64,000 nucleotides of DNA from a virus, in the UHGV virus genome UHGV-1351982; one strand, given 5' to 3'. The translations under genes and the position numbers were made by a program. This document shows, piece by piece, positions 1-37,945 of this stretch. The number at the start of each line of letters is the position of its first letter. The first letter of the stretch is position 1. The notes below the pieces were generated by a model. It saw only the letters and a list, made by a program, of their open reading frames with translations. It was not told the origin of the DNA and did no database searches.

Positions 1-68
1 GTCACTCAGAATTGAACTGAGTTCCACTGCTTGCAAGGCAGTAAGTTTAACCAAATAACCTATGACCC
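1..68 (-). tRNA. tRNA, 3' end truncated by window start; anticodon not securely resolved
   Basis: Reverse complement shows T-arm ctcag-ttcaatt-ctgag, anticodon-arm-like hairpin actgc/gcagt, acceptor gggtcat pairing with the window edge. Confidence 0.4.
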
Positions 69-77
69 CGAATTTGG

Positions 78-152
78 TGGAGAAAGAGGGAGTTGAACCC
101 TCGTCTTCTGCGTGCAAAGCAGATGTTCTACCATTAAACTATATCCCCAAAA
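78..152 (-). tRNA. tRNA-Ala (anticodon UGC)
   Basis: Cloverleaf on reverse complement: acceptor ggggata with G3:U70, anticodon stem tctgc/gcaga, loop tttgcac, T-arm gaggg-ttcaact-ccctc, CCA encoded. Confidence 0.6.
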
Positions 153-410
153 TCTTTAAGTTTACTAAGGCTATTAGCTCGGTGTGCGTAATACCCTCGG
201 CAATTAGCCATGCGAGGATACCCGCTCTCCACAAACCCGATACACTATTCAGTTGCCGCTGAATCTAGTGGACTAATCTAGAACTTCTTGCAAAGTATCC
301 CCCGCCATTAGGGGTCTAATTGCAACCGTGCTTTTTGGCAGCCAGTCCTAGGTCGAGCTAATACCTTAGTGAACTTTGATGAGGATTTCTCCTCATCAAT
401 TTATATAAAT

Positions 411-440
411 ATTATAACAAGAAATTAAGCATCAAGCAAG
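411..440 (-). promoter_or_regulatory. sigma70-like early promoter (TTGCTT, spacer, TATAAT) feeding the tRNA/ncRNA block at 1-400
   Basis: Minus-strand reading gives ttgctt ... gttataat followed by the conserved leader ttatataaattgatgaggag; no ORF follows, only RNA genes. Confidence 0.5.
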
Positions 441-791
441 TACATTTTTGCAGATTTCTTGTATTTCCTTAACGTCACTAACGAAAAGGTAATCAGAGCT
501 TCCAGAGTGCATACTCTGCATAACCACACCACCATCCGGTGCATCATCTTTCAGAGTAATTCCTAACCAGAACTCGGCAAAACTAGGTGTTACCTCACCT
601 TGACTTGCCTTGAACACATCGCCTTCTGTGATCTCTTGACCAGTAGAGAGTCCTATGTACGGTACATTCAGATCAATATCTTTGTAGAATTCAGCTAGAT
701 CTTGTTCGAAGTCCCAACCTTTAGAGATAGCGAACTCCATTGTTACATGCCCGAAATAGCCTTGAACCTTGCTTGATAATTGCATTTGCAA
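432..791 (-). CDS. hypothetical protein (119 aa)
   Basis: ORF with AAGGA RBS 6 nt upstream of the ATG; no recognisable motif. Confidence 0.55.
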   Translation of the reverse strand: MQMQLSSKVQGYFGHVTMEFAISKGWDFEQDLAEFYKDIDLNVPYIGLSTGQEITEGDVFKASQGEVTPSFAEFWLGITLKDDAPDGGVVMQSMHSGSSDYLFVSDVKEIQEICKNVLA

Positions 792-810
792 TTCCTTATT
801 TTGAGTTAAT

Positions 811-884
811 TGGTACTCGGTGATAGAATCGAACTATCGCAACCGCCGTGTAAAGACGGGGTTCTCCCATTAAACTAACCGAGC
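811..884 (-). tRNA. tRNA-Val (anticodon UAC)
   Basis: Acceptor gctcggt/accgagt, anticodon stem ccgtc/ggcgg, loop tttacac, T-arm gatag-ttcgatt-ctatc, CCA encoded. Confidence 0.6.
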
Positions 885-1017
885 AAAAGACTTCCTATGA
901 TGTAGGCTTCAAACAGAAACTCACATAATCCCGCTAAGAACATTCCAATAGTAAAATCAGCAGAAAATACGTTGTACTGCTTGACTTTTTGTTTCATTAA
1001 GTAAAACCAGATTATCA

Positions 1018-1335
1018 TCAAAATCTCTCCATTCTAAAACCAATGAAGTAAGGAGCGTTACAGGGAACATGTTTAAGATCTTTAAGAGTAATTTTACGTC
1101 CTAAACGTCGTTCCATACAAGTAAAACATAGAACAATATCTTTGGATTGTTCTTTTCTTATCTGATCCCAGACCCAATCTTCAACCACACACATTTCATG
1201 GTATTGTTCACAGTCTCGACAATAATGACATTGATGTTCTGGTACTTTTTGATTTTTAATACATAATTCAGTGAAGCGTTTTCCAGCTCTACCAGACATT
1301 TCTGATATTGTTCCTAGAACTTTGTTAATATTCAT
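1018..1335 (-). CDS. hypothetical Cys/His-rich protein (possible zinc-binding), 105 aa
   Basis: ORF; CxxC and HxxC clusters (HQCHYCRDCEQYHEMC, CFTCMERR). Confidence 0.5.
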   Translation of the reverse strand: MNINKVLGTISEMSGRAGKRFTELCIKNQKVPEHQCHYCRDCEQYHEMCVVEDWVWDQIRKEQSKDIVLCFTCMERRLGRKITLKDLKHVPCNAPYFIGFRMERF

Positions 1336-1352
1336 AACAAATTCCTTTAAAT

Positions 1353-1430
1353 TGGTTGACCGTCTGGGATTCGAACCCAGAACCTACGAGGTAAAAGCTC
1401 GGTACTCTTATCCAGTTGAGTTAACGGTCA
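1353..1430 (-). tRNA. tRNA-Lys (anticodon UUU)
   Basis: Acceptor tgaccgt/acggtca, anticodon loop cttttac, T-arm ctggg-ttcgaat-cccag, CCA encoded. Confidence 0.55.
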
Positions 1431-1432
1431 AT

Positions 1433-1597
1433 TTAATACATGTATACTTCTTTAATAGAGTGGACTTTCAAGTAAGGATGATTAATACCAAATTCCGCCA
1501 TCACTTCATTTTCATCTTTACCGTAATGGGCTAGTGGATACTTCTTACGATCTTTGCTAGAACGTAGATCACTTACTTTTAAACGAAATAATTTCAT
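1433..1597 (-). CDS. small hypothetical protein (about 54 aa) between two tRNA genes
   Basis: ATG preceded by GAAGGA RBS; below the ORF-track length cutoff. Confidence 0.3.
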   Translation of the reverse strand: MKLFRLKVSDLRSSKDRKKYPLAHYGKDENEVMAEFGINHPYLKVHSIKEVYMY

Positions 1598-1618
1598 TTC
1601 GAAATCCTTCTATTAAAT

Positions 1619-1696
1619 TGGAAGCGGGTGTAGGAATCGAACCTACCTCTTTCTAGCTTATGAAACTAGCGATCTCTACCAGAGATCTAACCCGCA
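1619..1696 (-). tRNA. tRNA with CAU anticodon (Met or Ile-lysidine)
   Basis: Anticodon stem ctagt/gctag, loop ttcataa, T-arm gtagg-ttcgatt-cctac, acceptor gcgggt/acccgc; possible 1:72 mismatch. Confidence 0.5.
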
Positions 1697-1702
1697 ATTG
1701 TT

Positions 1703-1778
1703 TGGTCTCCGTGGGAGGATTTGAACCCCCGACCCTACCGCCCCAAACGGTGTACTCTAGCCAATTGAGCTAATCGGA
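1703..1778 (-). tRNA. tRNA-Pro (anticodon UGG), tentative
   Basis: Anticodon loop tttgggg on accg/cggt stem, T-arm ggggg-ttcaaat-cctcc, acceptor tctccg/cggaga. Confidence 0.45.
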
Positions 1779-1811
1779 GAATATTCTTTGTTAACTCACT
1801 TTATAAAATAT

Positions 1812-1840
1812 ATTATACAGACATTTAAGTATAATAGCAA
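1812..1840 (-). promoter_or_regulatory. sigma70-like early promoter for the tRNA block at 1353-1778
   Basis: Minus strand: ttgcta, 17 nt, tataat. Confidence 0.5.
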
Positions 1841-2099
1841 ATGAGTTTTTAATAAATTTACTTATTGCGTAGGCCACCTGGAGGGTTCAAGCCCCACGGC
1901 TGACAAAGAAGTTTGCGAGACTTCTCTTAAATGCCAGAATAGACCCGCCGATCTATCGGAACCTACTCAATAAGTAAACTTCCGTTTACTTACACCTACC
2001 TGGTCGGGAGGATTTTCAGCGACTAGAACCGGCCGGAAACTCATCGCCTTGTTTATCTTGTAGTCCCACCATAGGTGACGCGACCTACAAAGATTTGGT

Positions 2100-2474
2100 T
2101 TATTCTTTTAAATAGTGAAGTTCTCTATGACAATTAGCGCAGAGTATAATACACTTTTGCAATTCAGTATGTAATTTAGCTCTAGAAATATTTGAAGACC
2201 TAAATACGCTTATATTATAATCTTTTGAGTCACTTTCTACGTGATGAAATTCTAATGCAGCTTTGCATTTATCATATCCGCATTTAGAACATTTTAATTC
2301 AGGGAAATATAAAGATATTATATCATCTACTGATTGTCTACGCTTGTTATTTTCACTTATCTTACACGTGGGTTTCCATTTCTGTTTTCCTGAAGGATGC
2401 AGTCCATTAGTGTAAAAATACTCTGTTGTCAGTGGATGTTCAACTCCACAACTTTTACAAAACTTATATTCCAT
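2100..2474 (-). CDS. HNH endonuclease (likely homing endonuclease) within the tRNA cluster
   Basis: Zinc-ribbon CxxC pairs plus HNH core (EFHHVESD ... CANCHRELH) in the translation. Confidence 0.65.
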   Translation of the reverse strand: MEYKFCKSCGVEHPLTTEYFYTNGLHPSGKQKWKPTCKISENNKRRQSVDDIISLYFPELKCSKCGYDKCKAALEFHHVESDSKDYNISVFRSSNISRAKLHTELQKCIILCANCHRELHYLKE

Positions 2475-2490
2475 TATAATACCTTAGATT

Positions 2491-2616
2491 TGGCGTTCTA
2501 GGGAGGACTTGAACCTCCTATCACTTGTGCGGAATTACGAGCAAACCATTTATCTACGGAATCGAACCGTATCTCAACCCTCGGCAAGCTGGCTTCCCCA
2601 CTCAGCCACGCTAGAA
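2491..2616 (-). tRNA. atypical tRNA-like element of about 126 nt with two T-arm-like hairpins; may be one unusual RNA or two overlapping degenerate tRNAs
   Basis: 3' end has T-arm ggagg-ttcaagt-cctcc, acceptor ctagaac and CCA; the complementary acceptor strand ttctag lies about 120 nt upstream; a second hairpin tacgg-ttcgatt-ccgta sits inside. Confidence 0.3.
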
Positions 2617-2699
2617 TGATAATTAGTGCCTGCTCCTTTGAATCAAGAAGTCCACCCTGGACTTTGGGTCTTTGCAGTACATCACGCTGCTCTGATGTT

Positions 2700-2775
2700 T
2701 GGTACACCCACTAGGACTTGAACCTAGAACCCTCCGCTTAAGAGGCGGTAGCTCTAACCATTGAGCTATGGATGT
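2700..2775 (-). tRNA. tRNA with apparent CUU anticodon (Lys), tentative
   Basis: 76-nt cloverleaf: acceptor acatcca/tgggtgt, D-stem gctc/gagc, anticodon loop ctcttaa, T-arm ctagg-ttcaagt-cctag, CCA. Confidence 0.5.
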
Positions 2776-2851
2776 ATTATTATGTTTTGCAGTGCTCTAA
2801 ATATAGACACTTCCCACGCGGTGGTTATCTATACCAGCGTCCTGCAAAAAT

Positions 2852-2928
2852 TGGCGCGACCGATGGGATTCGAACCCACATTTTCTCCCGTGACAGGGGA
2901 GTACCATTACCAAGCCAGCCCCGATCGC
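2852..2928 (-). tRNA. tRNA-Asp (anticodon GUC)
   Basis: Acceptor gcgatcg/cggtcgc, anticodon stem ctccc/gggag, loop ctgtcac, T-arm gtggg-ttcgaat-cccat, CCA. Confidence 0.6.
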
Positions 2929-2937
2929 ATAATTTAT

Positions 2938-3123
2938 TTACTCAGTTTTGAGTTTTTCGATAGCTTCCTCAACCTCTTTTAGAGCTTCACGACGGACATT
3001 CTGTTGCTGCATATCTTGAATTAATGTCAGTTTTTGGTTTTCAATTTCTTGATCCCAAACCTTAATATTATTAATCAGACTATCACGATCAGCTTCTAGT
3101 CGAGCAATTGCACGAGTTGTCAT
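2938..3123 (-). CDS. hypothetical coiled-coil protein (61 aa)
   Basis: ORF only; charged, helical-looking sequence. Confidence 0.4.
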   Translation of the reverse strand: MTTRAIARLEADRDSLINNIKVWDQEIENQKLTLIQDMQQQNVRREALKEVEEAIEKLKTE

Positions 3124-3225
3124 ATCTATTTCCTCAGTTATTAATGAAAATGGTATCTGTGACTGAATTCAATATCAGTAATGATAGCTGGTTGGCTACC
3201 GGTTTACTTAACTCTACACAGAATA

Positions 3226-6663: not shown

Positions 6664-7341
6664 TTATTTGTTAATGCGTACAAAGTATCCTTTATAAGTT
6701 CCAATAATAGAGTTACCTAAGAATACTAGCCACATTGCTAGGATTGCGTAAGATGCACCCGTAGATTGAGCAGTTACAAGCCAAATGTACACAGTACCAA
6801 TGTTAATAGCAATCCAAATCAGCCATTGTTCAGCATATTGTTTGACCATAAGCCACATAGCAATCACACTACCAACCGCAGTAAATGCGTCAAGCATTGG
6901 GAATGGATCAGCGGTAGTAGCAAGGAAGCTGCCATATCCTAAAGTAGCTACTGCTAGAACCCCTAGAGTCAGCAAAGCTTGAGCTTTGGTCAGAATCTTA
7001 GTTGGAACATCTGGCAGATTACTTGGCTTATTTTTATGCCATAAGTACATTCCATAAAACTGCATAGGAACGTAGTATAGCAGGTTTAGTGCAGCGTTAC
7101 CATAAAGATCTGCATTTAAAGCCGTAATACCATAGGTAAGAACACCAACTAAGCCCCAAATATAGTTGGAAACACGTCCTTTTGCAACCAGAATAACACA
7201 AACCACGTTGGTTATTGCAGTAGCCCAATCTAGAGCCGTACCATTATAGTTTGCTAAACTAATAAAGGCGACTGCTATAAACAGCCACAGATATTCCAAA
7301 GGTTTCCAGTTTTTAAAATCATTTACAAGATAGTTAGTCAT
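6664..7341 (-). CDS. pnuC: nicotinamide riboside transporter PnuC family
   Basis: About 225 aa multi-pass membrane protein with PnuC-like W/Y-rich helices (YIWGLVGV, WLIWIAINIGTVYIW); GGAGAG RBS before the MTNYL start; stop of upstream gene abuts. Confidence 0.6.
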   Translation of the reverse strand: MTNYLVNDFKNWKPLEYLWLFIAVAFISLANYNGTALDWATAITNVVCVILVAKGRVSNYIWGLVGVLTYGITALNADLYGNAALNLLYYVPMQFYGMYLWHKNKPSNLPDVPTKILTKAQALLTLGVLAVATLGYGSFLATTADPFPMLDAFTAVGSVIAMWLMVKQYAEQWLIWIAINIGTVYIWLVTAQSTGASYAILAMWLVFLGNSIIGTYKGYFVRINK

Positions 7342-7342
7342 A

Positions 7343-28951: not shown

Positions 28952-29191
28952 ATGAGCGAATTGCTTCCGAAAGTAGATGTTTCCCATCTTGGAGAGCCTA
29001 GTGAAGAACGTAAGGCTCTCGATTGGTTAGGTTACTTTGATGAACGTGTTGTATTACGTTCTGTCATGAAAGGTAAGGCCAAACATTTTAGAATCCGCTA
29101 TATTCGTAAGGATTTTGGCCATGTAACAATTGACTATATTGAAAAAGCTGGTAGTATTTCTACAGAAACAATTTACAAGGTTAAACAATGA
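28952..29191 (+). CDS. hypothetical protein (79 aa)
   Basis: ORF after GAGAGGAG RBS. Confidence 0.5.
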   Translation: MSELLPKVDVSHLGEPSEERKALDWLGYFDERVVLRSVMKGKAKHFRIRYIRKDFGHVTIDYIEKAGSISTETIYKVKQ

Positions 29192-29391
29192 AAAACGTAA
29201 AACATCTTAAATATCGCTTAATTTACAACGGACGTATGGAAACAGAAGATCTAGCTCAGCTAGCGATCAATTCAGATGAAGTTACAGTTCGTGCTTTGTC
29301 CATCGAGAAGCTGCGTGCTTCTTACGAAAATCGTATTATGGAATTAGAGGATAAACTTTATGGCATTCTCGAGTCAGAAGCTACCAAGTGA
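29188..29391 (+). CDS. hypothetical protein (67 aa)
   Basis: ORF; ATGA overlap with the upstream gene. Confidence 0.45.
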   Translation: MKNVKHLKYRLIYNGRMETEDLAQLAINSDEVTVRALSIEKLRASYENRIMELEDKLYGILESEATK

Positions 29392-29597
29392 AACTGTTAG
29401 TCTTATTAGCCTGAGTAAACTCAACGAAGAGTTTCAGGGAGTCTTAATGAAGCACTGGGAAACTGGGTATAAAGATGGTGTTGAATCCTGTGCTACTATG
29501 CTAGAAGTTCTTGCTGATAACCTAGTAGAGAAAGGCAATAAAGAATTAGCTGAGCTGTTAGAAGGTATTGGACAAAACTTCAGAGAACAGGTGAAAA

Positions 29598-30428
29598 ATG
29601 CGTAGACTAATTGTTGTTAGTGGTGCAGGTTTGAGCGTAGATAGTGGTGTTTGTGCATTCCGTACAGATACTGCTAGTGGTAAAGCCATGTGGGATGAGT
29701 ACGATCTAGAGGAAGTATGTAACATTAGTGCTTTCCAACGTGGGTATCGTTGCTACACTGGTGAGTTTGGCGTATGGGGTACTGATGAAGATGGTAAGGA
29801 CTTCTACACCAAGACTCATGAGTTCTACAATATGCGTCGTCAAGAACTTGAGAATGTAGAACCTAACATTGCCCATTTGCGTACTGCGGAATGGTTTCAA
29901 CGCTACGGTGCTGATTCTGTAAAGAACTTTACAACTAACGTTGATGACTTGCTCGAACGTGCTGGTATTCCTCGTGAGGAAATCTTACACGTGCACGGCT
30001 ACCTGAAAGAGATTATTTATCGTCGTGATCGTGATATGGTTATTGATGATATTGGGTATAGTGCTGTTGATATTAGTCAGTTTGAGTGGGTAAAGCCAAA
30101 CGTGGTGTTCTTTGGTGAGACAGCTCCGTGGTACATGGGCCAAATCAATCTGTTTGATACTCTTACTAGCAATGACATGGTTATTGTGGTGGGTTGTAGC
30201 AACCAAGTGATCAACTTCAACTGGGAATTATTCCCTGCTGTATGTCGTGGTACTAAGATGATGGTTGTTAACCCTCAAGTTCGCTATGACGAGCAGCTTG
30301 AGTACGAGAAACGTGGTGTTACTGTATGGCGTGCTGGAGCTGCCGAAGTTTTTGGTAACAAGCACTTCATTGGTCAAGTTGAAGCTTTTATGGAAGGAGC
30401 TATTTATGTCCCCGAAAAGACATCCTGA
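29598..30428 (+). CDS. SIR2-family (NAD-dependent deacylase-like) protein
   Basis: VVSGAGLSVDSGVCAFR Rossmann motif, catalytic-His region LHVHGY, VVFFGE and VIVVGCS blocks; no clear zinc-binding CxxC pairs. Confidence 0.55.
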   Translation: MRRLIVVSGAGLSVDSGVCAFRTDTASGKAMWDEYDLEEVCNISAFQRGYRCYTGEFGVWGTDEDGKDFYTKTHEFYNMRRQELENVEPNIAHLRTAEWFQRYGADSVKNFTTNVDDLLERAGIPREEILHVHGYLKEIIYRRDRDMVIDDIGYSAVDISQFEWVKPNVVFFGETAPWYMGQINLFDTLTSNDMVIVVGCSNQVINFNWELFPAVCRGTKMMVVNPQVRYDEQLEYEKRGVTVWRAGAAEVFGNKHFIGQVEAFMEGAIYVPEKTS

Positions 30429-30560
30429 TGATATAATTGTATGGCCAGATAAAACATGGTGCTATCGTGAAGAGTTGTGGGAAATGGATTATATGTCAGA
30501 TGATTTCTGTGTAATCTATATCGACACACCGGAACATAAAGCGTTCCTAGAGGAGAACGA

Positions 30561-30746
30561 ATGATAAAGAAGATTTTTAAGGGTATTTGGAAAGGTCTAG
30601 TATGGTTTGTCAACCTAATCGGTATGATTACCATTTATTCTCTGTTCATATCTGTTATGTGGGGTAAAGGTGAGCTGAAGGTTCCGGTTCCTTTTACTGA
30701 TGAAGTTAAAGTCTGGACATGGGATGCTACTGGTGGAAATAAGTAA
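30561..30746 (+). CDS. small membrane protein (61 aa)
   Basis: Hydrophobic helix WFVNLIGMITIYSLFISVMW. Confidence 0.4.
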   Translation: MIKKIFKGIWKGLVWFVNLIGMITIYSLFISVMWGKGELKVPVPFTDEVKVWTWDATGGNK

Positions 30747-31239
30747 TACTCCTGTGATTTTCCTGGATATTGATGGGGTGCTCAATTCGAGCATCTCTCA
30801 CCATCATGCTCCAGATAGTGAAAAGCTATTCTTTGGTGGTGATTGGGTTTATAAGCCATTACTCCAGGCTTTTCAGAACTTCCTTAAACCTTCTTCAATA
30901 ATGATTGTTGGGGTATCTTCATGGTTTTCTGTACGAAATGAAATGGAGAACGTTCAGATTATGACCGGACTCGGTTTGATCGATCGTTTTCTTGGTACAA
31001 CAGATTTTACTGGAGGTGGTTTATCTCGGGGTAATTCTGTTTTACGTTTTGTCGAAAAATATAAGCTCAAGCATTGGTGTGTCCTAGATGATGCTGGTGC
31101 TATGATGTATCAATTTCCTACTGTTATTGTAAACGGCAGGACTGGAATAAACCTTCAAGATTTAAACGCTATCAGCTATATGCTGGAGTTTAGTCCAGAT
31201 CTTGAAATGTGTAAGGCTCTTCAGAAACTCAAGGTGTAA
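30724..31239 (+). CDS. HAD-superfamily phosphatase (deoxyribonucleotidase-like); start uncertain
   Basis: FLDIDGVLN motif I near the N-terminus. Confidence 0.5.
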   Translation: MLLVEISNTPVIFLDIDGVLNSSISHHHAPDSEKLFFGGDWVYKPLLQAFQNFLKPSSIMIVGVSSWFSVRNEMENVQIMTGLGLIDRFLGTTDFTGGGLSRGNSVLRFVEKYKLKHWCVLDDAGAMMYQFPTVIVNGRTGINLQDLNAISYMLEFSPDLEMCKALQKLKV

Positions 31240-31241
31240 AT

Positions 31242-31670
31242 ATGTTCGATAATCTTTTCATGAAAGAGGTAAACCCTATGCTTCTCAACTTCTGGCGTTC
31301 TCTCCCTAATGGTATGTACAATGAAACCATCAATCTCCTTAAGATTTGGTGTGAGAATAACGATATCTTCCTGTCTTTTAAAGGCCCGCTAGAGGAAGCT
31401 CCGTGTATTGGAGTTAGTGTGGATTTAGGTGAGGGAGTAGAAGAGATTGTGGACTGGAAAGAACTCGATGAAATGGGTCTGGTTTTTGCCTTGAACCATA
31501 AGCTGTTTATGCCTGCAAATCACCGTCTTATTGTAAATTATCGTACTGGTGAAGCTCCTGCTTTCCAGGTAAATGAACGTGAGGGCTGGTCATATTCGCC
31601 CGAGGAAGTAAATGAGGGGATTCAGAAACTTCGTCGTTTCGGGTATATGATCCCAGGTTTAACTGCTTAA
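31242..31670 (+). CDS. hypothetical protein, paralog 1 (142 aa)
   Basis: AAGGTG RBS; shares WxELxxMGLxxALN ... TGExP ... PGL with the next gene. Confidence 0.5.
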   Translation: MFDNLFMKEVNPMLLNFWRSLPNGMYNETINLLKIWCENNDIFLSFKGPLEEAPCIGVSVDLGEGVEEIVDWKELDEMGLVFALNHKLFMPANHRLIVNYRTGEAPAFQVNEREGWSYSPEEVNEGIQKLRRFGYMIPGLTA

Positions 31671-31679
31671 GGAGGCAGA

Positions 31680-32075
31680 ATGGAACAAGTATTTTGGCGT
31701 CAGATAGATCCTAGTTTGGTAGAGCGTGCTGAGGGGCTCCTTGCACGTTGGTTGGGGGTTGACAAGGTTAGTGTAACATTTCCGTTTACTTCTGTAACAG
31801 ACCCTAGTGTAGGTGTCTTTGTGGACGAAGATGAAGATGATGGTTGGGAAGCTGACTGGAATGAATTGTCCAGCATGGGCTTGATTGTTGCCCTCAACTT
31901 CTCTATATTCCATCCATGTGGCTTAGCCATTACACGTGACCCCGAAACTGGTGAATCCCCTTATCTTTTGCAAGTAGAAGATGATATTTGGGAGTACACC
32001 GAAGATATTCTCGAAGAAGCTAAAGGTCAATTAAATCGCATTGGGATCTATGTTCCAGGCCTAAATGATGATTGA
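31680..32075 (+). CDS. hypothetical protein, paralog 2 (131 aa)
   Basis: TAAGGAGG RBS; similar to 31242-31670. Confidence 0.5.
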   Translation: MEQVFWRQIDPSLVERAEGLLARWLGVDKVSVTFPFTSVTDPSVGVFVDEDEDDGWEADWNELSSMGLIVALNFSIFHPCGLAITRDPETGESPYLLQVEDDIWEYTEDILEEAKGQLNRIGIYVPGLNDD

Positions 32076-32691
32076 TTTTCATTAGCCCAATCCTGATTAC
32101 CGAGTCATTTTGGCTCGGTTTTCTCTGTGCTCAAAGACACTGATAGCACCTTCGGAAAAATTTTACTTGCAGGATGCTCAAAATCTTGATATAATATTTA
32201 TATTGAATTGAGAGACATTAGTAAAAATTGATTTTGCTAATTTTTCTTGTTTACAATCCGCAATACGGAACAGTTAGGCTGCCCCATTAAGGGTTGTTTT
32301 AACTATTACTAGTGTTTATACTGCATTAGTTAATTATCAATTAAGTGATCTGCGTACCCTGAATTCGGAAAGGTAAATCCAAACCGTGCATATTTAGCTC
32401 GTTATATAGGCAGAGCTTTATATGGGGGTGCGAACGAAAAGAGCAGCGAATGGTGACACGTCCAGTAGCCACCTACCAATAGGATAGTGAGGGCAATCAG
32501 AATCGGCTTAGCGGCCAATGACCTAGGTTCTGATCTGGATAAGAGTTAAGAGAGCGCAGCACTGAGGTATGATAACTTATTCATACTGCTTGATGATGAT
32601 TAATGTTTGTGTAAATGGTAGTAATAGTTGTTCTATTCTTTTGAATAGTCCTAAAGAAAGATATCCGAATAACCAACATAGGAGTATTGTT

Positions 32692-35481
32692 GTGTTCTCA
32701 ATCCTACAAGGTCACGCAGGATTTTCCAGAGATAAAGCCACTGGCATCTGGAAAGAGATCAAAGTGGAAGATTACACCTTTGCAAAGCGATTCTCTAAAG
32801 AGCATCCAGAAGGTAAACCAGCTTCCATGCCCTTCAAATTTGATGTACTTGAAGAACTTGACCCGCAAAACCTTGCTGAAATGTTACCTATCATGCGTCG
32901 TCTTACCAAAGACCCGCATATTGTAGCTATTCGTGGTAAATGTTTAGCTCCAAAAGATAATGTGCGTCGTACCAGGGGAAACTTTAACGTATCCAATCCT
33001 AGTCATATTATTGCTATGGACGTGGATGGTATTGTAGATACTGGTGGCTATGACAAGTTTAATCTTGTTGGCATGGCACGTCATATTATTAAGATGTTGA
33101 ATAGTATTAGTGAGGATATGTTTCCTCTTGATGCAGGGTTTATTGCCCATGCATCGTCTTCGGCTGGATTAAAACCAGGTATCCGAATGCACTTAATGCT
33201 AGAATCTAATGTCAAGGTAACGCAGGGACAGTTAAAGTTCTTATTTACATCTATCAATGACAGTAGTAAGCAAAAGTATGGCTTTGATATTGCTGACTTA
33301 GCTTATTATTCTTCTGTTCAGCTTCACTATTTTGCAGATCCCTTATTTGATGATGGTATAGTCGATCCGTTTAAAGCGGAGAATAAACCACGTCTTGTGT
33401 ATGTTAAGGGTTCGAAGGTGAATCTACCTAATAACCTAGTTGACTTTGAAACAACTAGAGGTGAGTTTAAAGAAGAGTTCTACTCCTTACTTGACCAAAT
33501 TAAAGGCAAGAAGGCTGCATCTGATAAAGTGGAAGAAACCATCAGCGAACTAGAAGAAGCTGAGGATGGAGTGTACCTGCGTATTATCCCAAAACTTTAT
33601 CACAGAGCGTTAGAAGATGGTGTTGACTTTACGTGGTTAGAACGTGAGATTAAACCAGCTTTATCTGAATATATTGCAACTAAAGATAATAGTCGTAATA
33701 TTCAGGATTACTTTAATAACGGTCGTAAGCAGGCTCTCAAAGCCTTTGTAAATAACTCCAAACGTGAGATTCCACCAAACTTAAAAGGTGTACCATTAAA
33801 ACGTCTAGACACAGATTCTCCACCAGAAGTTCCGTACCTGAAAATTAACATTGTACCCCCAAAAGGACATTTAACATTTGTTAAGGCAAGTCTTGGTACG
33901 GGTAAAACTACAGCAGTAACTAAGTGGCTAGATGCAGGTGTTCTTCCAGGAAACTTTATTGCAATCACAAATACTAGGGCACTTGTATCTTCTAACGCGA
34001 AGAAATTCGGTGCTGGTCAGTATGATAAGTCAGTTGATATGCTGAACTTCAAACGTGGTGCCATTGATCGTATGTCTTCAACTATTCACTCTATCCATAA
34101 GTTCAAGAGCTTTGTGGGTCAGATTGATACGATCTTTATTGATGAATGTGATGCAGTAATGAACGATCTGTTATTCGCTCCGGTTGTTAAAAACCGTCGT
34201 GAATGTATTCAGGTTCTTCGCGATATTCTTATTACTGCTAAAACTGTTATCTTATCTGATGGTGATATCAGTGCAGAAACGATTGAAGCCTATGGTTCTT
34301 TGATTGATTTTGATAAACCGGTTGCGTTCTATAATCATCACCGTAAAATGCTGGCGAAAGCTCACGCTTATGAATTCCCTGACGAATCCAGTATTTGGGT
34401 TGCACTTCAAACATCTCTAGAGATGGGTGAGAAGTCAATCCTAGTATCTGACTGTGGACCAGATGAACTGAATGAAAAGGGAATGGCATTACGTCGTAAT
34501 ACTGGTGCGTTAGTTAAAGAAATTCACTCAAACTCTACGTCTGATGTAGATATCCGACGTATTCTGGATTATACAACTAATGAGCTAATTGATCAACAGA
34601 TTGATTGTTTGTTATGTAGTCCATCTGTAACGAGTGGTGTTGACTTTAACTATTTTGATAATGTATTCGTAATCACTAGAACCTCAAACCAAGCGCCAAA
34701 CATGCGTTTCCAAGCAATCAGGCGCGACCGTGGTGCTCAGAACATTTATTATTTTATTGATAAATCTACGAGTGGATTTTCTGCGGGTTCCGAGCAATAT
34801 AATATTGACGAAGGTTGGATTGAGTTAGCCCAACAACTGTACGCACGCCGTCGTGAGCTGGAATCTAGAAACTATACTAGTACTTTGCGTTATTATCTGC
34901 TTGATCAGGGTGCAACTATCGATATTTTCAGCGAAAGCTGGGGAACTATCGAAGGTGCAGGCAAAGAGTATATAGAAGAGCGAATCAAAGCTATTTTGCA
35001 CTCAACTCCTGAATATTGCGCACCACGTCATGCAGACGCATATGAAGCTAAATTGCTTCTGGTTCGCTATTATCATCTGGATTCTATCAAAGATGTAACA
35101 GTGGAACATGTTGAACAGTATATCAAGGATAAACCGAATGATAGAGCTGCATTTTTCCATAAGATGCACGAGATGTTCTGGGAAGATATCAAGAAGTGTT
35201 CAAACGTAACAATCAAACCTTTTATTGAAGCTCTTAAGAATAAGAAGAAGGATTTCTTCCTTAAGACAGGTCAGAGTGCTAACCCAAAATATGCTCGTAT
35301 GTATCTTGGCATGATGGGTATCGGTAAAGATCTGGATACGGAAAAGATTGTGGACTGGTACAGAACTTACTGTAAGATCGAATGTATGCCGATTCCAGTT
35401 AAGTTTATGACAGATGAAGAACGTCAGATGCATGAGGAAGCTCTTGCTGAATTGGGAGCTAGAAATGACAGTGAAGAATAA
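32692..35481 (+). CDS. large Walker A/DExD-box ATPase, putative replication initiation or origin-binding helicase; start uncertain
   Basis: Walker A SLGTGKTT, Walker B/DExD FIDECDAV; in-frame GTG at 32692 after AGGAG RBS. Confidence 0.55.
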   Translation: MFSILQGHAGFSRDKATGIWKEIKVEDYTFAKRFSKEHPEGKPASMPFKFDVLEELDPQNLAEMLPIMRRLTKDPHIVAIRGKCLAPKDNVRRTRGNFNVSNPSHIIAMDVDGIVDTGGYDKFNLVGMARHIIKMLNSISEDMFPLDAGFIAHASSSAGLKPGIRMHLMLESNVKVTQGQLKFLFTSINDSSKQKYGFDIADLAYYSSVQLHYFADPLFDDGIVDPFKAENKPRLVYVKGSKVNLPNNLVDFETTRGEFKEEFYSLLDQIKGKKAASDKVEETISELEEAEDGVYLRIIPKLYHRALEDGVDFTWLEREIKPALSEYIATKDNSRNIQDYFNNGRKQALKAFVNNSKREIPPNLKGVPLKRLDTDSPPEVPYLKINIVPPKGHLTFVKASLGTGKTTAVTKWLDAGVLPGNFIAITNTRALVSSNAKKFGAGQYDKSVDMLNFKRGAIDRMSSTIHSIHKFKSFVGQIDTIFIDECDAVMNDLLFAPVVKNRRECIQVLRDILITAKTVILSDGDISAETIEAYGSLIDFDKPVAFYNHHRKMLAKAHAYEFPDESSIWVALQTSLEMGEKSILVSDCGPDELNEKGMALRRNTGALVKEIHSNSTSDVDIRRILDYTTNELIDQQIDCLLCSPSVTSGVDFNYFDNVFVITRTSNQAPNMRFQAIRRDRGAQNIYYFIDKSTSGFSAGSEQYNIDEGWIELAQQLYARRRELESRNYTSTLRYYLLDQGATIDIFSESWGTIEGAGKEYIEERIKAILHSTPEYCAPRHADAYEAKLLLVRYYHLDSIKDVTVEHVEQYIKDKPNDRAAFFHKMHEMFWEDIKKCSNVTIKPFIEALKNKKKDFFLKTGQSANPKYARMYLGMMGIGKDLDTEKIVDWYRTYCKIECMPIPVKFMTDEERQMHEEALAELGARNDSEE

Positions 35482-35698
35482 AAAGTGGGAGACAAGGAAG
35501 TTTCCCGTAAAAGAACGTAAAACTTCTGTTTACGATACTGCGGAGAAACTATGTAGGGTTGTACCACCTCGTCTCGCTGGTATCCCTAATGTCTCCATAT
35601 GGTTACTTAAACAACGGAAGACTCGTGTGTCTCTTCGCATTGGCTTTGAGTTAGATAAAGTCTATGCTGAACTTGCTTCTTTGCTCAAAGAATCGTAA
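35465..35698 (+). CDS. hypothetical protein (about 77 aa)
   Basis: ATG with GGAG RBS; overlaps the 3' end of the preceding gene. Confidence 0.4.
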   Translation: MTVKNKKWETRKFPVKERKTSVYDTAEKLCRVVPPRLAGIPNVSIWLLKQRKTRVSLRIGFELDKVYAELASLLKES

Positions 35699-35705
35699 AA
35701 ATTTA

Positions 35706-35735
35706 TTTGCTTTCAGGAAAAATTTTCTGTATAAT
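35706..35735 (+). promoter_or_regulatory. sigma70-like early promoter
   Basis: ttgctt, 18 nt, tataat, leader ataaatttgagagaggag. Confidence 0.55.
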
Positions 35736-35766
35736 AGATTCATAAATTTGAGAGAGGAGTTTAAAT

Positions 35767-36471
35767 ATGGCTGGTTCTCGTAGAAAGAAACTTATCCATG
35801 AAATCCCTGATGAAACCTTTAAAAAGGTTATTGAACATCTGGAGAATGGTGGTACTAAGAAAGCAGCATGTGAAATGCTCGGTGTTTCTTCTAACCCAAC
35901 TATGGAACGAATGATCGAAGAATGGAGAGATCGTCAGGTTCAAGTTGCGGAAATGAAAAAGAAGAAGCGCGGAACACTGATTGAGGGTGTTGAGCTTGCA
36001 AACATAATTGAACAGTATCTTTCTGGTGATTCTTTTGAAGAAATTGCTGATCGTAACTATCGTTCTGTAGCGATGATTAAATCTGTTCTGGAACGTTATG
36101 GTGCTCTGCTTCGTTTAAACGATATTGTTGATCCATTGAATCCTCCGCTGATTCCTGATGATGCAATGGCAGAAGAGTTTGAAGTTGGTGAACTTGTTTG
36201 GGTTCCTGGCTATCAGTGTATTGGTGAGATCAAGAAAGCAATGACTAATCCAGTTGGTTGTTATCGTGTTTGGTTGTTATCAGAAGGTAAACAACAGAAC
36301 GTGCACTATATGCACTACGAATTAGCTTCTGTTAAACATCTGGAAAAGCTGGGTGTTGACGTTAAAGCTCTAGGCTTTAAGTGGAGTCGTGAAGAAGTTA
36401 TCACGTTGGTTAATGAAGCTGTTAAAGCTGCCCTGAAACTCGATAAAGAGAAAGGAAAACGCCGTGAGTAA
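35767..36471 (+). CDS. putative DNA-binding (HTH) regulatory protein
   Basis: 234 aa; N-terminal HTH-like segment GGTKKAACEMLGVSSNPTMERMI. Confidence 0.45.
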   Translation: MAGSRRKKLIHEIPDETFKKVIEHLENGGTKKAACEMLGVSSNPTMERMIEEWRDRQVQVAEMKKKKRGTLIEGVELANIIEQYLSGDSFEEIADRNYRSVAMIKSVLERYGALLRLNDIVDPLNPPLIPDDAMAEEFEVGELVWVPGYQCIGEIKKAMTNPVGCYRVWLLSEGKQQNVHYMHYELASVKHLEKLGVDVKALGFKWSREEVITLVNEAVKAALKLDKEKGKRRE

Positions 36472-36718
36472 ACTAACTGATCTGTTAAAAGCTGGAGAGG
36501 TAAAATATCTCCAGCGAGATAGCTGGGAAAACAATACTTATTCTACTACTATTATCAAAGTAGATGTTGATAATAATGACATCGTAGAATTTACATGGTG
36601 GTGGTCTAAAGATGGACGCACTAAACTCACGCTAGACGATGCATCGTGGAAAACCACTGAGCTAACTCTAGACGAAGCTCTGGCCGACGATTGGGAGATC
36701 GTTGAACTAGATGTGTAG
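36464..36718 (+). CDS. hypothetical protein (84 aa)
   Basis: ORF overlapping the upstream stop. Confidence 0.5.
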   Translation: MSKLTDLLKAGEVKYLQRDSWENNTYSTTIIKVDVDNNDIVEFTWWWSKDGRTKLTLDDASWKTTELTLDEALADDWEIVELDV

Positions 36719-36738
36719 CAGTTACTGAAAAATTTCAG

Positions 36739-36767
36739 TTGCTTAATCCTGTAATTCTTGATATAAT
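36739..36767 (+). promoter_or_regulatory. sigma70-like early promoter
   Basis: ttgctt, 17 nt, tataat. Confidence 0.5.
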
Positions 36768-36825
36768 ATTCTCATAGTTTGAAAGAACTATTCTGTTTAA
36801 TTCTTAATTAAGGAAATCGAAAAAT

Positions 36826-37236
36826 ATGACTACTCCAACTCAGTGGACTGATGAACTGTTCGAAAAAATGTCTTCCGACTACGTTGCTCGTATGGAGCAA
36901 TTCCCAGAAGATGAGCGTCCGGGCGTTAGCATGGAAATTGTTAGCGAAATTGCTCAGGAAAATGGTGTAACTCCGAATGGTTTCCGTATGAAGCTGACCA
37001 AAGCAGGTCTGTATATCAAGAAAGCTGCTGGCTCTACTTCTAAATCAAGCGCATCTACTGGAGAAAAAGCTTCTGGTGGTTCTCGTACTTCCAAAGCTCA
37101 GGCTCACTCCGATCTTCGCTCTGCATTCTCTGATGCTGGCTTAGCACCGGACTTCCTGGACGACGCAATCATCGACAAGCTGACCGGTAAAGCAGCTGCT
37201 CATCTGGCAGAAGCTATCCGAGCTATCACTAAGTAA
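36826..37236 (+). CDS. hypothetical protein (136 aa), likely highly expressed
   Basis: AAGGAAA RBS; host-optimal codons. Confidence 0.55.
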   Translation: MTTPTQWTDELFEKMSSDYVARMEQFPEDERPGVSMEIVSEIAQENGVTPNGFRMKLTKAGLYIKKAAGSTSKSSASTGEKASGGSRTSKAQAHSDLRSAFSDAGLAPDFLDDAIIDKLTGKAAAHLAEAIRAITK

Positions 37237-37272
37237 TTCTTAGATAAATCCACCAACACAAGGAATACAGCT

Positions 37273-37569
37273 ATGAATAAAGCTGAAATTATTGCTCAAT
37301 GCGAAAAATTTGGTGAGTTTTATCTTCATTACGAAAAACTTCGTCAGAAAGGAACCACGTACCTTCAGGGTACGATGGAATTTGATCCAGCTCAGGATAA
37401 ATACCTGGCTGAGCGTATTAAACGTGAGCGCATCCGTAAGCCGAAAGAAGATGAAATCCTTGTTTTCTCTCGTACTAATGATAGCTTCCGTTTCATTCCT
37501 GTTGCGAAAGTTCGCCGTGTGACGAGCCTCCAGTCAGAGTTAGATCGTGCTTCTCCAGTAGGCCGATAA
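37273..37569 (+). CDS. hypothetical protein (98 aa)
   Basis: AAGGAA RBS; terminator follows. Confidence 0.55.
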   Translation: MNKAEIIAQCEKFGEFYLHYEKLRQKGTTYLQGTMEFDPAQDKYLAERIKRERIRKPKEDEILVFSRTNDSFRFIPVAKVRRVTSLQSELDRASPVGR

Positions 37570-37578
37570 GAAACCAAT

Positions 37579-37602
37579 TAGCCCCTATATGGGGCTTTTT
37601 GT
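37579..37602 (+). terminator. rho-independent terminator
   Basis: Hairpin agcccc-tatat-ggggct plus T-run. Confidence 0.55.
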
Positions 37603-37619
37603 ATATTTGGGATATGTAA

Positions 37620-37928
37620 ATGAGCGATCAGGTAAATCAAAACTATGAAGGACACGTTGACGACCAGTCCATCATGCTTTGGGAGAAGGAGGGGGAACAA
37701 GTAAGACTAACCGTATCTGAATTTCGTGGGAATCTATACATGGGAATTCGTTACTGGCTCCAAGATATTACTGGAGAGTGGTTTCCAACGAAATCCGGCT
37801 TCTCTTTTCCTTATACCCTAGAAACTACATCACAGCTATTCTACGCTTTTACGCAAATCCTCAGTGAATCCGAGGTCTTGCATGAAGTACAGAAACGAGC
37901 TGAAGAACTCAAAGCCAAGAATGCCTAG
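37620..37928 (+). CDS. hypothetical protein (102 aa)
   Basis: ORF. Confidence 0.5.
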   Translation: MSDQVNQNYEGHVDDQSIMLWEKEGEQVRLTVSEFRGNLYMGIRYWLQDITGEWFPTKSGFSFPYTLETTSQLFYAFTQILSESEVLHEVQKRAEELKAKNA

Positions 37929-37945
37929 TTCTTGGCTTTTTCTTT
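37912..37945 (+). terminator. rho-independent terminator
   Basis: Hairpin gccaagaa ... ttcttggc plus T-run. Confidence 0.5.

What the first reader, a model, noticed from the sequence alone, without database searches (positions are those of the whole stretch)
155..400. ORF-free hairpin-rich segment between tRNA-Ala and an early promoter
A promoter at 411-440 points into this region but no ORF and no canonical tRNA is recognisable. It contains inverted repeats such as ctagtggactaatctag and could encode a small stable RNA co-transcribed with the tRNAs.
Basis: seen in the sequence. Interest (0 to 1): 0.45.

Follow-up and report, generated by a model that had tools for sequence, protein, structure and literature searches.

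The report
Phage T5 RNA2H-type structured RNA
This stretch is the gene for a tightly folded, roughly 200-nucleotide non-coding RNA, the counterpart of the 'RNA2H' stable RNA annotated in phage T5, which sits in the tRNA gene cluster of nearly all T5-like phages of enterobacteria examined; it was already on record, but its fold is in no RNA catalogue and its function is unknown.

Summary
Window 160-374 (minus strand) is a 215-nt gene for a structured non-coding RNA. It is the ortholog of 'rna2H/RNA2H', annotated in phages T5 and DT57C as 'stable RNA with unknown functions'. It lies between the T5-type early promoter P13b (-35 at 439-434, -10 at 416-411) and tRNA-Ala. No ORF, tRNA or Rfam family fits.

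I collected more than 40 distinct homologs from T5-like phages of Escherichia, Salmonella, Klebsiella, Enterobacter, Pantoea, Pectobacterium, Providencia and Proteus. Two Vibrio T5-like phages have none.

Covariation supports:
- a 21-bp closing helix with an invariant bulged G;
- a 4-bp helix P2 and hairpins P3, H4, H5 and P6;
- two pseudoknots in which one 5' strand pairs with the loops of H4 and H5.

In the 21-sequence alignment, 92.5% of cells are paired and 50 of 62 pairs show compensatory changes.

T5's annotated RNA ends fit an RNase III-type cut in the closing helix. T5 mutants deleted for this region are viable, and the region is a reported anti-defence island. Function remains unknown; I favour a trans-acting, protein-binding accessory RNA. 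This is a known entity with a newly resolved fold.

The parts
411..439 (-). Early sigma-70 promoter, ortholog of T5 P13b. -35 TTGCTT at 439-434, 17-nt spacer, -10 TATAAT at 416-411. Inferred start near 404.
   Evidence: Read. Aligns with the annotated T5 promoter P13b and the AKFV33 'T5 promoter consensus' feature. The same promoter directly precedes the RNA in Sugarland, Enterobacter KKP_3711, L174, Eos and My1.
376..399 (-). 5' leader hairpin (UUGAUGAGGA-GAAA-UCCUCAUCAA) between the inferred start site and the RNA.
   Evidence: 10-bp perfect inverted repeat. A hairpin occupies the same place with a different sequence in the Enterobacter lineage, My1 and L182. It is absent in Sugarland and Eos. 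Its top is inverted in L166 and L171.
160..374 (-). RNA2H-family structured RNA, full conserved element (215 nt), bounded by helix P1.
   Evidence: Covariance models score it 201.2 bits (R1) and 189.6 bits (R2). Conservation in relatives stops exactly at the P1 ends whatever the flanks are.
169..363 (-). Predicted mature RNA (195 nt), if processed as the T5 annotation implies.
   Evidence: T5 rna2H (172 nt) starts at the first nt of P1b. It ends two paired nt plus the bulged G past P1b on the 3' strand. Transferred to the window by alignment. Inference only.
364..374 (-). P1a 5' strand (GUUCACUAAGG); pairs with 160-170.
   Evidence: 11 bp in all 11 representative sequences, with compensatory changes.
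160..170 (-). P1a 3' strand (CCUUAGUAAAC).
354..363 (-). P1b 5' strand (UAUUAGCUCG); pairs with 172-181.
   Evidence: 9-11 bp everywhere. The sequence is completely different in My1, PR1, L182 and AAS21, yet stays paired.
172..181 (-). P1b 3' strand (CGAGCUAAUA).
171..171 (-). Invariant bulged G between P1b and P1a on the 3' strand.
   Evidence: Present in all 11 lineage representatives and in Proteus phage Stubb.
344..348 (-). PK1 5' strand (GGACU); pairs with 270-274 in the H4 loop.
   Evidence: 100% of cells paired. 4 of 5 pairs show changes on both sides. PK1 is not part of the covariance model, so this test is unbiased.
270..274 (-). PK1 3' strand (AGUCC), inside the H4 loop.
337..340 (-). 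PK2 5' strand (UGCC); pairs with 254-257 in the H5 loop.
   Evidence: UGCC:GGCA (T5 clade, AAS21), ACC:GGU (Sugarland, Enterobacter, L182), AAUC:GAUU (Eos), UUGC:GCAA (My1), UGCC:GGCG (PR1).
254..257 (-). PK2 3' strand (GGCA), inside the H5 loop.
332..336 (-). A-rich linker (AAAAA) between PK2 and P2.
   Evidence: A-rich in all lineages. A tertiary role is inferred only.
328..331 (-). P2 5' strand (GCAC); pairs with 242-245 (GUGU).
   Evidence: GCAC:GUGU in most, ACAC:GUGU in Sugarland, AAGA:UCUU in Providencia PR1.
242..245 (-). P2 3' strand (GUGU).
287..326 (-). P3 hairpin, long form (40 nt). T5 has an 18-nt short form.
   Evidence: The base pairs covary. Long and short forms swap among close relatives.
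264..282 (-).
   Evidence: The stem covaries: CGGA:UCCG, ACGGA:UCCGU, GCGG:CCGC, UUCCG:CGGAA, CUGGA:UCCAG, GUGAGA:UCUCAC.
248..263 (-). H5 hairpin (UUCAG-CGGCAA-CUGAA).
   Evidence: The stem covaries: ACGC:GCGU, AGGU:ACCU, AAGG:CCUU, AGGG:CCCU, AGAGA:UCUCU, CUGGC:GUCAG.
186..225 (-). P6 hairpin, 'form A', with the invariant form-A loop UGGCUAAU.
   Evidence: All 12 modelled pairs show changes on both sides. Other forms occur in T5, L182, AAS21, My1 and PR1. Coordinates.
75..148 (-). tRNA-Ala(UGC), the next gene on the same transcript. Its 5' end is 11 nt after P1.
   Evidence: ARAGORN and Rfam. No promoter lies between the two.

Best explanation
Window 374->160 (minus strand) is the gene for a stable, compactly folded non-coding RNA, the ortholog of phage T5 RNA2H.

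Shown:
- It is non-coding and is not a tRNA.
- It is conserved as a self-contained module in T5-like phages of Enterobacterales.
- Its fold is a 21-bp closing helix P1 with an invariant bulged G. P1 encloses a core in which one 5' strand (GGACU-GGC-UGCC) pairs with the loops of two adjacent hairpins, H4 and H5, forming two pseudoknots. A 4-bp helix P2 closes around P3, H4 and H5, and a variable hairpin P6 follows.

Inferred:
- Host RNA polymerase transcribes it early from its own T5-type promoter, as the first gene of a tRNA operon.
- It is released by RNase P cutting at the 5' end of tRNA-Ala. An RNase III-type staggered cut across P1 at the bulged G probably follows, leaving about 195 nt closed by P1b.
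- Its pseudoknotted core makes it nuclease-resistant.

Most likely mode of action (speculative, about 0.4 given that it is an RNA gene): it works in trans through its three-dimensional shape by binding or sequestering a protein. It would serve as an accessory host-takeover or anti-defence factor that is dispensable in laboratory E. coli.
For: Identity:
- T5 and DT57C annotate the orthologous site as misc_RNA rna2H, 'stable RNA with unknown functions', between promoter P13b and tRNA-Ala.
- The window copy scores 201 bits against the family model and is single-copy.

Structure:
- 41 distinct sequences: 93.8% of cells paired against 84.2% in shuffles.
- 21 diverse sequences: 92.5% against 73.7%. 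50 of 62 pairs change on both sides. Slid controls give 31-42% paired.
- PK1 and PK2 were not in the model, yet are 100% and 94.9% paired.
- A manual register shows every helix intact in 11 representatives.

Module behaviour:
- Conservation ends at P1 while the flanks vary: tRNA-Ala, tRNA-Leu, HNH endonuclease or other ORFs.

Transcription and processing:
- A dedicated promoter sits directly upstream in six lineages.
- T5's annotated RNA ends give a 2-nt 3' overhang across P1. P1a is always 11 bp and P1b 9-11 bp.

Accessory role:
- Viable T5 deletions (29191-32442 and 30661-38625) span RNA2H, which lies at 31808-31979 (PMC11464382).
- The tRNA-rich region is reported as an anti-defence island (preprint 10.1101/2023.03.15.532788).
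- The RNA is kept in about 97% of Salmonella, Escherichia and Klebsiella T5-like records: 471 with the RNA against 485 with the polymerase.
Against: - The 'stable RNA' label and the RNA ends come from database annotation whose experimental basis I could not trace.
- No conserved neighbouring protein gene suggests a partner.
- No sequence-level counterpart exists in 5,426 E. coli genomes that would point to a mimicked host RNA.
- Its promoter-proximal position at the head of a tRNA operon fits a cis role equally well.
- It is absent from the two Vibrio T5-like phages examined.
- Placement in an anti-defence island is guilt by association only.
Confidence: 0.6

Rival explanations
1. A cis-acting leader of the tRNA operon. 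The folded RNA would act on its own transcript, for example as a processing platform (an RNase III entry site, as upstream of the T4 tRNA cluster), a 5' stabiliser, or a put-like element that makes RNA polymerase resistant to termination through the tRNA cluster. The excised RNA would be a by-product.
For: It lies directly after a dedicated promoter, at the head of a run of tRNA genes, in the T5 clade, Sugarland, Enterobacter lineage, Eos and My1. P1 is a 21-bp duplex suited to RNase III, and the T5 annotated ends fit such a cut. There is no conserved protein partner nearby.
Against: In HildyBeyeler-type phages, Spc35, STyj5-1, PR1 and AAS21 the T5-type promoter is not directly upstream, and in L182 none is evident. 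In several phages the next gene is an ORF or an HNH endonuclease rather than a tRNA, yet the RNA is fully conserved. A double-pseudoknot core with invariant junction bases is far more elaborate than a processing hairpin needs. T5 annotators list it as a stable RNA species.
Confidence: 0.2
2. A new ribozyme (self-cleaving or otherwise catalytic) whose pseudoknotted core forms an active site.
For: It has a compact multi-pseudoknot architecture with a handful of invariant unpaired bases: the G after PK1, the A-run, AG after P3, U before the PK1 3' strand, and A after the PK2 3' strand. From general knowledge, small ribozymes are known next to phage tRNA genes.
Against: No match to any ribozyme family of Rfam 15, even at E<=5-10, in the window or in seven diverse homologs. 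The helix order differs from HDV, glmS and twister topologies. The T5-annotated ends lie in the P1 duplex, as expected for a protein nuclease, not in the conserved core.
Confidence: 0.08
3. A ligand-sensing riboswitch-like aptamer controlling the downstream gene.
For: It has a P1-closed multi-helix junction with pseudoknots and conserved junction nucleotides. In some phages an RBS and start codon follow 10-17 nt after P1.
Against: P1 is 21 bp long, far too stable to switch. No alternative terminator or anti-terminator overlaps its 3' strand. The downstream gene is usually a tRNA and otherwise varies. No Rfam riboswitch match.
Confidence: 0.05
4. A degenerate or divergent tRNA or tRNA-like gene, or a small protein-coding gene as some GenBank records annotate.
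For: It sits in a tRNA cluster. Other T5 'rna' features (rna2, rna3) are tRNA-like. CDS features overlap it in the Sugarland, Stubb, AAS21 and SmurfNell records.
Against: ARAGORN and the Rfam tRNA and tmRNA models find nothing. The annotated CDSs are on different strands and frames in different phages. Relatives differ by a 22-nt hairpin swap and by compensatory, not synonymous, changes. The longest ORF confined to the element is 32 aa.
Confidence: 0.02

Closest known systems
Phage T5 RNA2H (misc_RNA rna2H, T5s04, NC_005859 31808-31979; also annotated in AY692264 and in DT57C KM979354)
   Same: Same position (promoter P13b - RNA - tRNA-Ala). About 78-79% nucleotide identity. Same covariance-model family (220.8 bits for T5, 201.2 for the window). 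Same helices.
   Different: The window copy has the long P3 hairpin (40 nt against 18 nt) and a different P6 hairpin ('form A', loop UGGCUAAU), so it is 215 nt against 192 nt between the P1 ends. In Salmonella phage 1-29, the record identical to the window over 149-410, the region carries no annotation.
Phage T4 stable RNAs 'species 1' and 'species 2' (rnaC, rnaD) in the T4 tRNA cluster (own knowledge, not tested here)
   Same: Phage-encoded, abundant, non-tRNA stable RNAs co-transcribed and co-processed with a tRNA cluster. Dispensable in the laboratory. Function unknown for decades.
   Different: No sequence or model relationship was tested or is expected. Those RNAs are shorter and, as far as I know, are not described as double pseudoknots.
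Large or complex phage-associated structured RNAs found near tRNA genes (GOLLD, ROOL; Rfam families; own knowledge)
   Same: Orphan, elaborately folded RNAs, often in phage genomes next to tRNAs, with unknown biochemical function.
   Different: Those are 500-800 nt and are in Rfam. The window and seven homologs match no Rfam family. RNA2H is about 175-215 nt and restricted to Demerecviridae in my searches.
HK022 put RNAs and other promoter-proximal processive antitermination RNAs (own knowledge)
   Same: A structured RNA immediately downstream of an early phage promoter, at the head of a long operon.
   Different: put is about 70 nt, two simple stem-loops, acts only in cis and does not accumulate as a closed stable RNA. 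RNA2H has a 21-bp closing helix and two pseudoknots, and is conserved even where no promoter is adjacent.
Pseudoknot-rich ribozymes and aptamers (HDV-like, glmS, twister, SAM-II-type H-type pseudoknots)
   Same: Hairpin loops pair with a distant single strand. An A-rich linker is positioned to lie in a helix groove. There are few, invariant unpaired bases.
   Different: The strand order (5' strand -> loops of two consecutive hairpins, all enclosed by P2 and P1) matches none of them. No covariance-model match.

Membership tests
T5 RNA2H stable-RNA family (GenBank annotation; no Rfam entry) | Orthologous position: downstream of early promoter P13b, upstream of tRNA-Ala, in the tRNA cluster, same strand as the tRNAs | tested here: met
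   Alignment of window, T5, DT57C and AKFV33 with their annotations.
T5 RNA2H stable-RNA family (GenBank annotation; no Rfam entry) | Sequence and structure homology to T5 rna2H | tested here: met
   blastn 79.5% identity over 110 nt of T5 rna2H. Covariance model R1 gives 201.2 bits for the window and 220.8 for T5.
T5 RNA2H stable-RNA family (GenBank annotation; no Rfam entry) | Shared fold: P1 with bulged G, P2, P3, H4, H5, P6 and pseudoknots PK1 and PK2, maintained by compensatory change | tested here: met
   (92.5% of cells paired; 50 of 62 pairs change on both sides; PK1 100% paired).
T5 RNA2H stable-RNA family (GenBank annotation; no Rfam entry) | Accumulates as a discrete stable RNA in infected cells | not testable with these tools
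   Only the database label 'stable RNA with unknown functions'. No paper describing it was found in the library.
tRNA / tmRNA | Cloverleaf (or tRNA-like domain plus tag ORF) detectable by ARAGORN or the Rfam tRNA and tmRNA models | tested here: not met
   No call between 149 and 810. Rfam at E<=10 finds only tRNA-Ala. None over the element in seven homologs.
Any curated Rfam 15 family (riboswitches, ribozymes, 6S, Y RNA-like and others, as far as the library holds them) | Match to the family covariance model | tested here: not met
   Gathering threshold on the whole window: tRNAs only. E<=10 on 100-500: chance snoRNA hits over the promoter and hairpin only. E<=5 on seven diverse homolog loci: nothing over the element.
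RNase III processing site | About two turns (roughly 20-22 bp) of near-perfect duplex | tested here: met
   P1a 11 bp plus P1b 9-11 bp in all 11 representatives.
RNase III processing site | Cleavage leaving a 2-nt 3' overhang, dependent on rnc | not testable with these tools
   The T5 annotated ends correspond to such a stagger, but their experimental basis is unknown to me.
put-like cis antiterminator RNA | Obligatory position directly downstream of the promoter it serves | tested here: inconclusive
   True in six lineages. Not in HildyBeyeler-type phages, STyj5-1, PR1 and AAS21, and unclear in L182.
Protein-coding gene | Conserved ORF with substitution and indel patterns that preserve the frame | tested here: not met
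   Longest ORF confined to the element is 32 aa. There is a 22-nt indel between relatives. The variation is compensatory in helices.

The most novel reading that the evidence does not exclude
RNA2H is the founding member of a functionally new class: a double-pseudoknotted phage RNA that acts as a decoy or inhibitor of a host immune or RNA-metabolism protein, or is itself a new ribozyme. This would explain why almost every enterobacterial T5-like phage keeps it in the 'anti-defence island', although laboratory T5 can lose it.
Probability: 0.25. Interest if true: 0.8.

Novelty: already known. Interest (0 to 1): 0.45.

Why it matters
T5 is a classic model phage, and its tRNA-rich region has recently been shown to hold several counter-defence factors: tRNA-Lys against PARIS, tRNA-Tyr and the protein Rad against retrons. 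RNA2H is a large, highly conserved, elaborately folded RNA in that same region. It has carried the label 'unknown functions' in the T5 reference record, is missing from Rfam, and is left unannotated or overlaid with spurious CDSs in most of the several hundred related genome records.

The covariation-supported fold, the covariance model and the list of lineages given here make it directly testable through deletion, compensatory mutants, pull-downs and rnc dependence. They also allow correct annotation. If it proves to be an RNA-based anti-defence factor or a catalytic RNA, it would be a new kind of phage weapon. If it is only a processing module, it would still explain how T5 tRNA operons mature.

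Tried and rejected
1. The thermodynamic (MFE and RNAalifold) core helix CUAGGACU:AGUUCUAG and the extension CACUA:UAGUG. Both are broken in Sugarlandvirus and other lineages. They are replaced by PK1 plus H4, which covary.
2. CAAA:UUUG as an extension of P2. L007 changes the A-run without compensation, and UUUG is absent in My1, PR1 and AAS21.
3. A P3-P6 kissing contact (8-nt complement 200-207/316-323). It is not conserved in L021, L037 or Sugarland. P3 and P6 forms occur in all four combinations.
4. Paralogy with T5 'rna2' (reading 'rna2H' as 'rna2 homolog'). The covariance model finds a single copy in the window and in the T5 tRNA region, and blastn finds no similarity.
5. A conserved downstream or upstream protein partner. 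The flanking genes differ between lineages, and the window's flanking ORFs belong to PHROGs of unknown function.
6. A host origin or mimic. There is no blastn match in 5,426 complete E. coli genomes.
7. Homologs outside Demerecviridae:
   - Motif scans of IMG/VR returned only the T5-like phage loci already in hand plus matches elsewhere; those run through the model did not match it, and the extra loci were not run.
   - The metagenome scan gave 12 loci, all from the same lineages.
   - The first scan of 185,579 species genomes found nothing. The relaxed scan gave 120 chance matches, mostly a Nostoc gene, and none of the 100 tested fits the model.
8. Vibrio T5-like phages KIT04 and IW18. There is no homolog in their tRNA regions, even with filters off for KIT04.
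9. Literature. No paper in the library mentions RNA2H or describes T5 stable RNAs.
10. The weak Rfam snoRNA hits at 357-445 (E 0.2-8). These are C-box-like UGAUGA in the leader hairpin and are chance matches.

Full report

The window comes from a T5-like phage (Demerecviridae). Bases 1-3000 match 532 phage records, and 149-410 is 100% identical to Salmonella phage 1-29. Eighteen tRNA genes lie on the minus strand, with tRNA-Ala(UGC) at 75-148 and tRNA-Val at 811-884.

- No ORF: the longest ORF confined to 155-400 is 32 aa.
- No tRNA, tmRNA or Rfam family.
- Strong structure: the minus-strand RNA 410->149 folds at -96.5 kcal/mol against -65.9 +/- 4.6 for shuffles, z = -6.67.
The strongest repeats are 158-170/364-376, 172-181/354-363 and 376-385/390-399.
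- Promoter: TTGCTT(439-434)-N17-TATAAT(416-411) on the minus strand.

IDENTITY

The orthologous T5 segment is annotated misc_RNA rna2H (T5s04), 'stable RNA with unknown functions'. It lies between 'promoter P13b' and tRNA-Ala in NC_005859 (31808-31979), in AY692264 and in DT57C. AKFV33 annotates the same promoter by similarity to the T5 consensus. A four-way alignment shows an invariant core and two hairpins replaced by different hairpins. Most other records leave the region blank or place a CDS over it.

HOMOLOGS

blastn finds the segment in 507 phage records. Motif scans of IMG/VR and metagenomes added loci. Stepping outwards by blastn and by a covariance model (R1; R2) gave the following hits (R1 scores, except Stubb, scored with R2):

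| Lineage | Source | Bits |
|---|---|---|
| Sugarlandvirus (Klebsiella) | several records | 148-154 |
| Enterobacter phage KKP_3711 and metagenome L174 | PP579741, L174 | 154.6, 154.9 |
| Phage Eos | MN478377 | 134.7 |
| IMG/VR contig | L182 | 94.7 |
| Pantoea phage AAS21 | MK770119 | 101.2 |
| Pectobacterium phage My1 (Mccorquodalevirinae) | NC_018837 | 55.9 (E 2.7e-14) |
| Providencia phage PR1 (Priunavirus) | KY363465 | 54.1 (E 5.4e-13) |
| Proteus phage Stubb (Novosibvirus) | MH830339 | 63.6 |

Two Vibrio phages, KIT04 and IW18 (Thalassavirus), have nothing in their tRNA regions. Nothing was found in species-representative bacterial genomes or in 5,426 E. coli genomes. The element is single-copy in the window and in the T5 tRNA region.

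STRUCTURE

Window coordinates are and all lie on the minus strand.

- P1a: 374-364 with 170-160 (11 bp).
- P1b: 363-354 with 181-172 (10 bp).
- An invariant bulged G at 171.
- PK1: GGACU (348-344) with AGUCC (274-270), in the loop of H4.
- PK2: UGCC (340-337) with GGCA (257-254), in the loop of H5.
- A-run: 336-332.
- P2: GCAC (331-328) with GUGU (245-242).
- P3 hairpin: 326-287.
- H4: 282-264.
- H5: 263-248.
- P6: 225-186.

Pair counts:
- On 41 distinct sequences, 93.8% of cells pair (shuffles 84.2%), and PK1 is 100% paired with 4 of 5 covarying pairs.
- On 21 diverse sequences, 92.5% pair (shuffles 73.7%; slid controls 31-42%), and 50 of 62 pairs change on both sides.
- PK1 and PK2 were not in the covariance model, so their support is independent of the alignment method.

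Examples of covariation:
- PK1: GGACU:AGUCC, GAGCC:GGCUC, GAGUC:GACUC, GAACC:GGUUC.
- PK2: UGCC:GGCA, ACC:GGU, AAUC:GAUU, UUGC:GCAA.
- P2: GCAC:GUGU against AAGA:UCUU in PR1.
- P1b: UAUUAGCUCG, UCUCUUAUC, UAUAUGUAUA and UAUAACCUAGG, each with its own perfect partner.

Unpaired positions conserved in all 11 representatives are few:
- the G after PK1;
- the A-rich linker;
- AG after P3;
- the U before the PK1 3' strand;
- the A after the PK2 3' strand;
- the As flanking the P2 3' strand.

The single-sequence MFE core, and the RNAalifold core derived from the T5-dominated alignment, is wrong. It pairs CUAGGACU with AGUUCUAG, and that helix is broken in other lineages.

TRANSCRIPTION AND MATURATION (INFERRED)

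A T5-type promoter directly precedes the RNA in the T5 clade, Sugarland, the Enterobacter lineage, Eos and My1. In Sugarland and Eos the -10 box lies only about 8 nt from P1, so transcription must start at or just before P1. Elsewhere a leader hairpin (window 399-376) intervenes. No promoter separates the RNA from tRNA-Ala, so RNase P cleavage at 148/149 should free its 3' side.

The T5 annotation starts at the first base of P1b and ends two paired bases (plus the bulged G) beyond P1b. That geometry is a 2-nt 3' overhang across a 21-bp duplex, the signature of RNase III (established enzymology). P1a is 11 bp and P1b 9-11 bp in every lineage. By analogy, the mature window RNA would be 363->169 (195 nt). 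I could not find how the T5 ends were determined.

BIOLOGY

The module keeps its exact P1 boundaries while its neighbours change: tRNA-Ala, tRNA-Leu, HNH endonucleases, a Cys-rich ORF, or other ORFs. P3 and P6 exist in discrete forms that occur in all four combinations.

It is present in about 97% of Salmonella, Escherichia and Klebsiella T5-like records: 471 with the RNA against 485 with the polymerase.

T5 mutants with deletions 29191-32442 and 30661-38625 are viable (PMC11464382). Those deletions span 31808-31979, assuming the paper uses reference coordinates, which its tRNA fragment coordinates support. The same roughly 8-kb tRNA-rich region is described as an 'anti-defence island' (preprint 10.1101/2023.03.15.532788).

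The RNA is therefore dispensable in the laboratory yet strongly retained in nature.

MECHANISM

I am about 95% confident that this is a functional structured RNA gene orthologous to RNA2H. For how it works I can only rank hypotheses:

| Hypothesis | Probability |
|---|---|
| Trans-acting RNA that binds or sequesters a protein through its shape (accessory host-takeover or anti-defence role) | about 0.4 |
| Cis-acting leader for processing, stability or antitermination of the tRNA operon | about 0.2 |
| New ribozyme | about 0.08 |
| Riboswitch (P1 is too long to switch) | about 0.05 |
| tRNA-like or coding | about 0.02 |

COMPARISON AND NOVELTY

The thing itself is already known as an annotated T5 stable RNA. 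What this analysis adds:
- a covariation-proven double-pseudoknot fold;
- the RNase III-compatible P1;
- the spread across at least five genera or subfamilies of Demerecviridae that infect Enterobacterales;
- its absence from the Vibrio branch examined;
- its absence from Rfam 15.

It resembles T4's orphan stable RNAs and other orphan phage RNAs in concept only.

LIMITS

- There is no expression or biochemical data.
- Covariance searches could only be run on sequences I had fetched.
- E-values from the shortened calibration are rough.
- The literature library lacks the original T5 papers.

Noticed in passing
window 376-399 (minus strand): A 10-bp leader hairpin lies between the inferred transcription start and the RNA. 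A hairpin occupies the same place with unrelated sequence in the Enterobacter lineage, My1 and L182, and is absent in Sugarland and Eos. In metagenome loci L166 and L171 its top is exactly inverted (GAGGATTTCTCCTC against GAGGAGAAATCCTC). On the + strand it looks like a terminator followed by a T-rich run.
   Followed up: partly
window 1866-1966 (minus strand): Ortholog (94% identity) of T5 misc_RNA rnaIV, another annotated non-tRNA RNA of the T5 tRNA region. It matches no Rfam family at gathering threshold.
   Followed up: partly
window 2498-2618 (minus strand): Ortholog (79% identity) of T5 misc_RNA 'rna2'. Its 3' part is what ARAGORN calls tRNA-Arg(ccg) at 2547-2616, but the Rfam tRNA model did not reach threshold there. 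It may be a tRNA-like RNA with a 5' extension.
   Followed up: partly
window 3151-3223 (minus strand): Ortholog (94.5% identity) of DT57C 'rna3' (putative stable RNA). It is 73 nt and ends in ACCA, yet neither ARAGORN nor Rfam calls it a tRNA.
   Followed up: no
window 12919-12990 (minus strand): A borderline Rfam tRNA hit (29.3 bits against a threshold of 29) that ARAGORN does not report, about 500 nt from tRNA-Arg(tct) at 12319-12393.
   Followed up: no
window 287-326 and 186-225; loci L003, L007, L025, L021: Hairpins P3 (short or long) and P6 (form A or form B) occur as discrete cassettes in all four combinations among closely related T5-like phages. This implies recombination inside the RNA gene at helix boundaries.
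   Followed up: partly
L004 1545-1733 (+), L308 598-741, L304 17952-18074, SmurfNell record: Several GenBank records place 'hypothetical protein' CDSs, on either strand, over the RNA2H homolog. These are very probably annotation artefacts.
   Followed up: partly
L012, L028, L304 (AAS21), just 3' of the RNA: An HNH endonuclease ORF begins 1-17 nt after the 3' end of P1 in three phages. A Cys-rich small ORF sits in the same place in STyj5-1 and Enterobacter KKP_3711. The 3' edge of the RNA module looks like a preferred insertion or recombination point.
   Followed up: no
window 200-207 and 316-323: There is an 8-nt perfect complement between the P6 loop region and P3 (CUAAUUGC/GCAAUUAG). It is not conserved in relatives with other P3 or P6 sequences, so it is probably chance.
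   Followed up: yes
window 6667-7356 (minus strand): A 230-aa ORF within the tRNA-rich region matches a PnuC-like nicotinamide mononucleotide transporter PHROG (E 5.7e-74). The ORFs flanking the RNA (435-791, 1021-1335) belong to PHROGs of unknown function.
   Followed up: no
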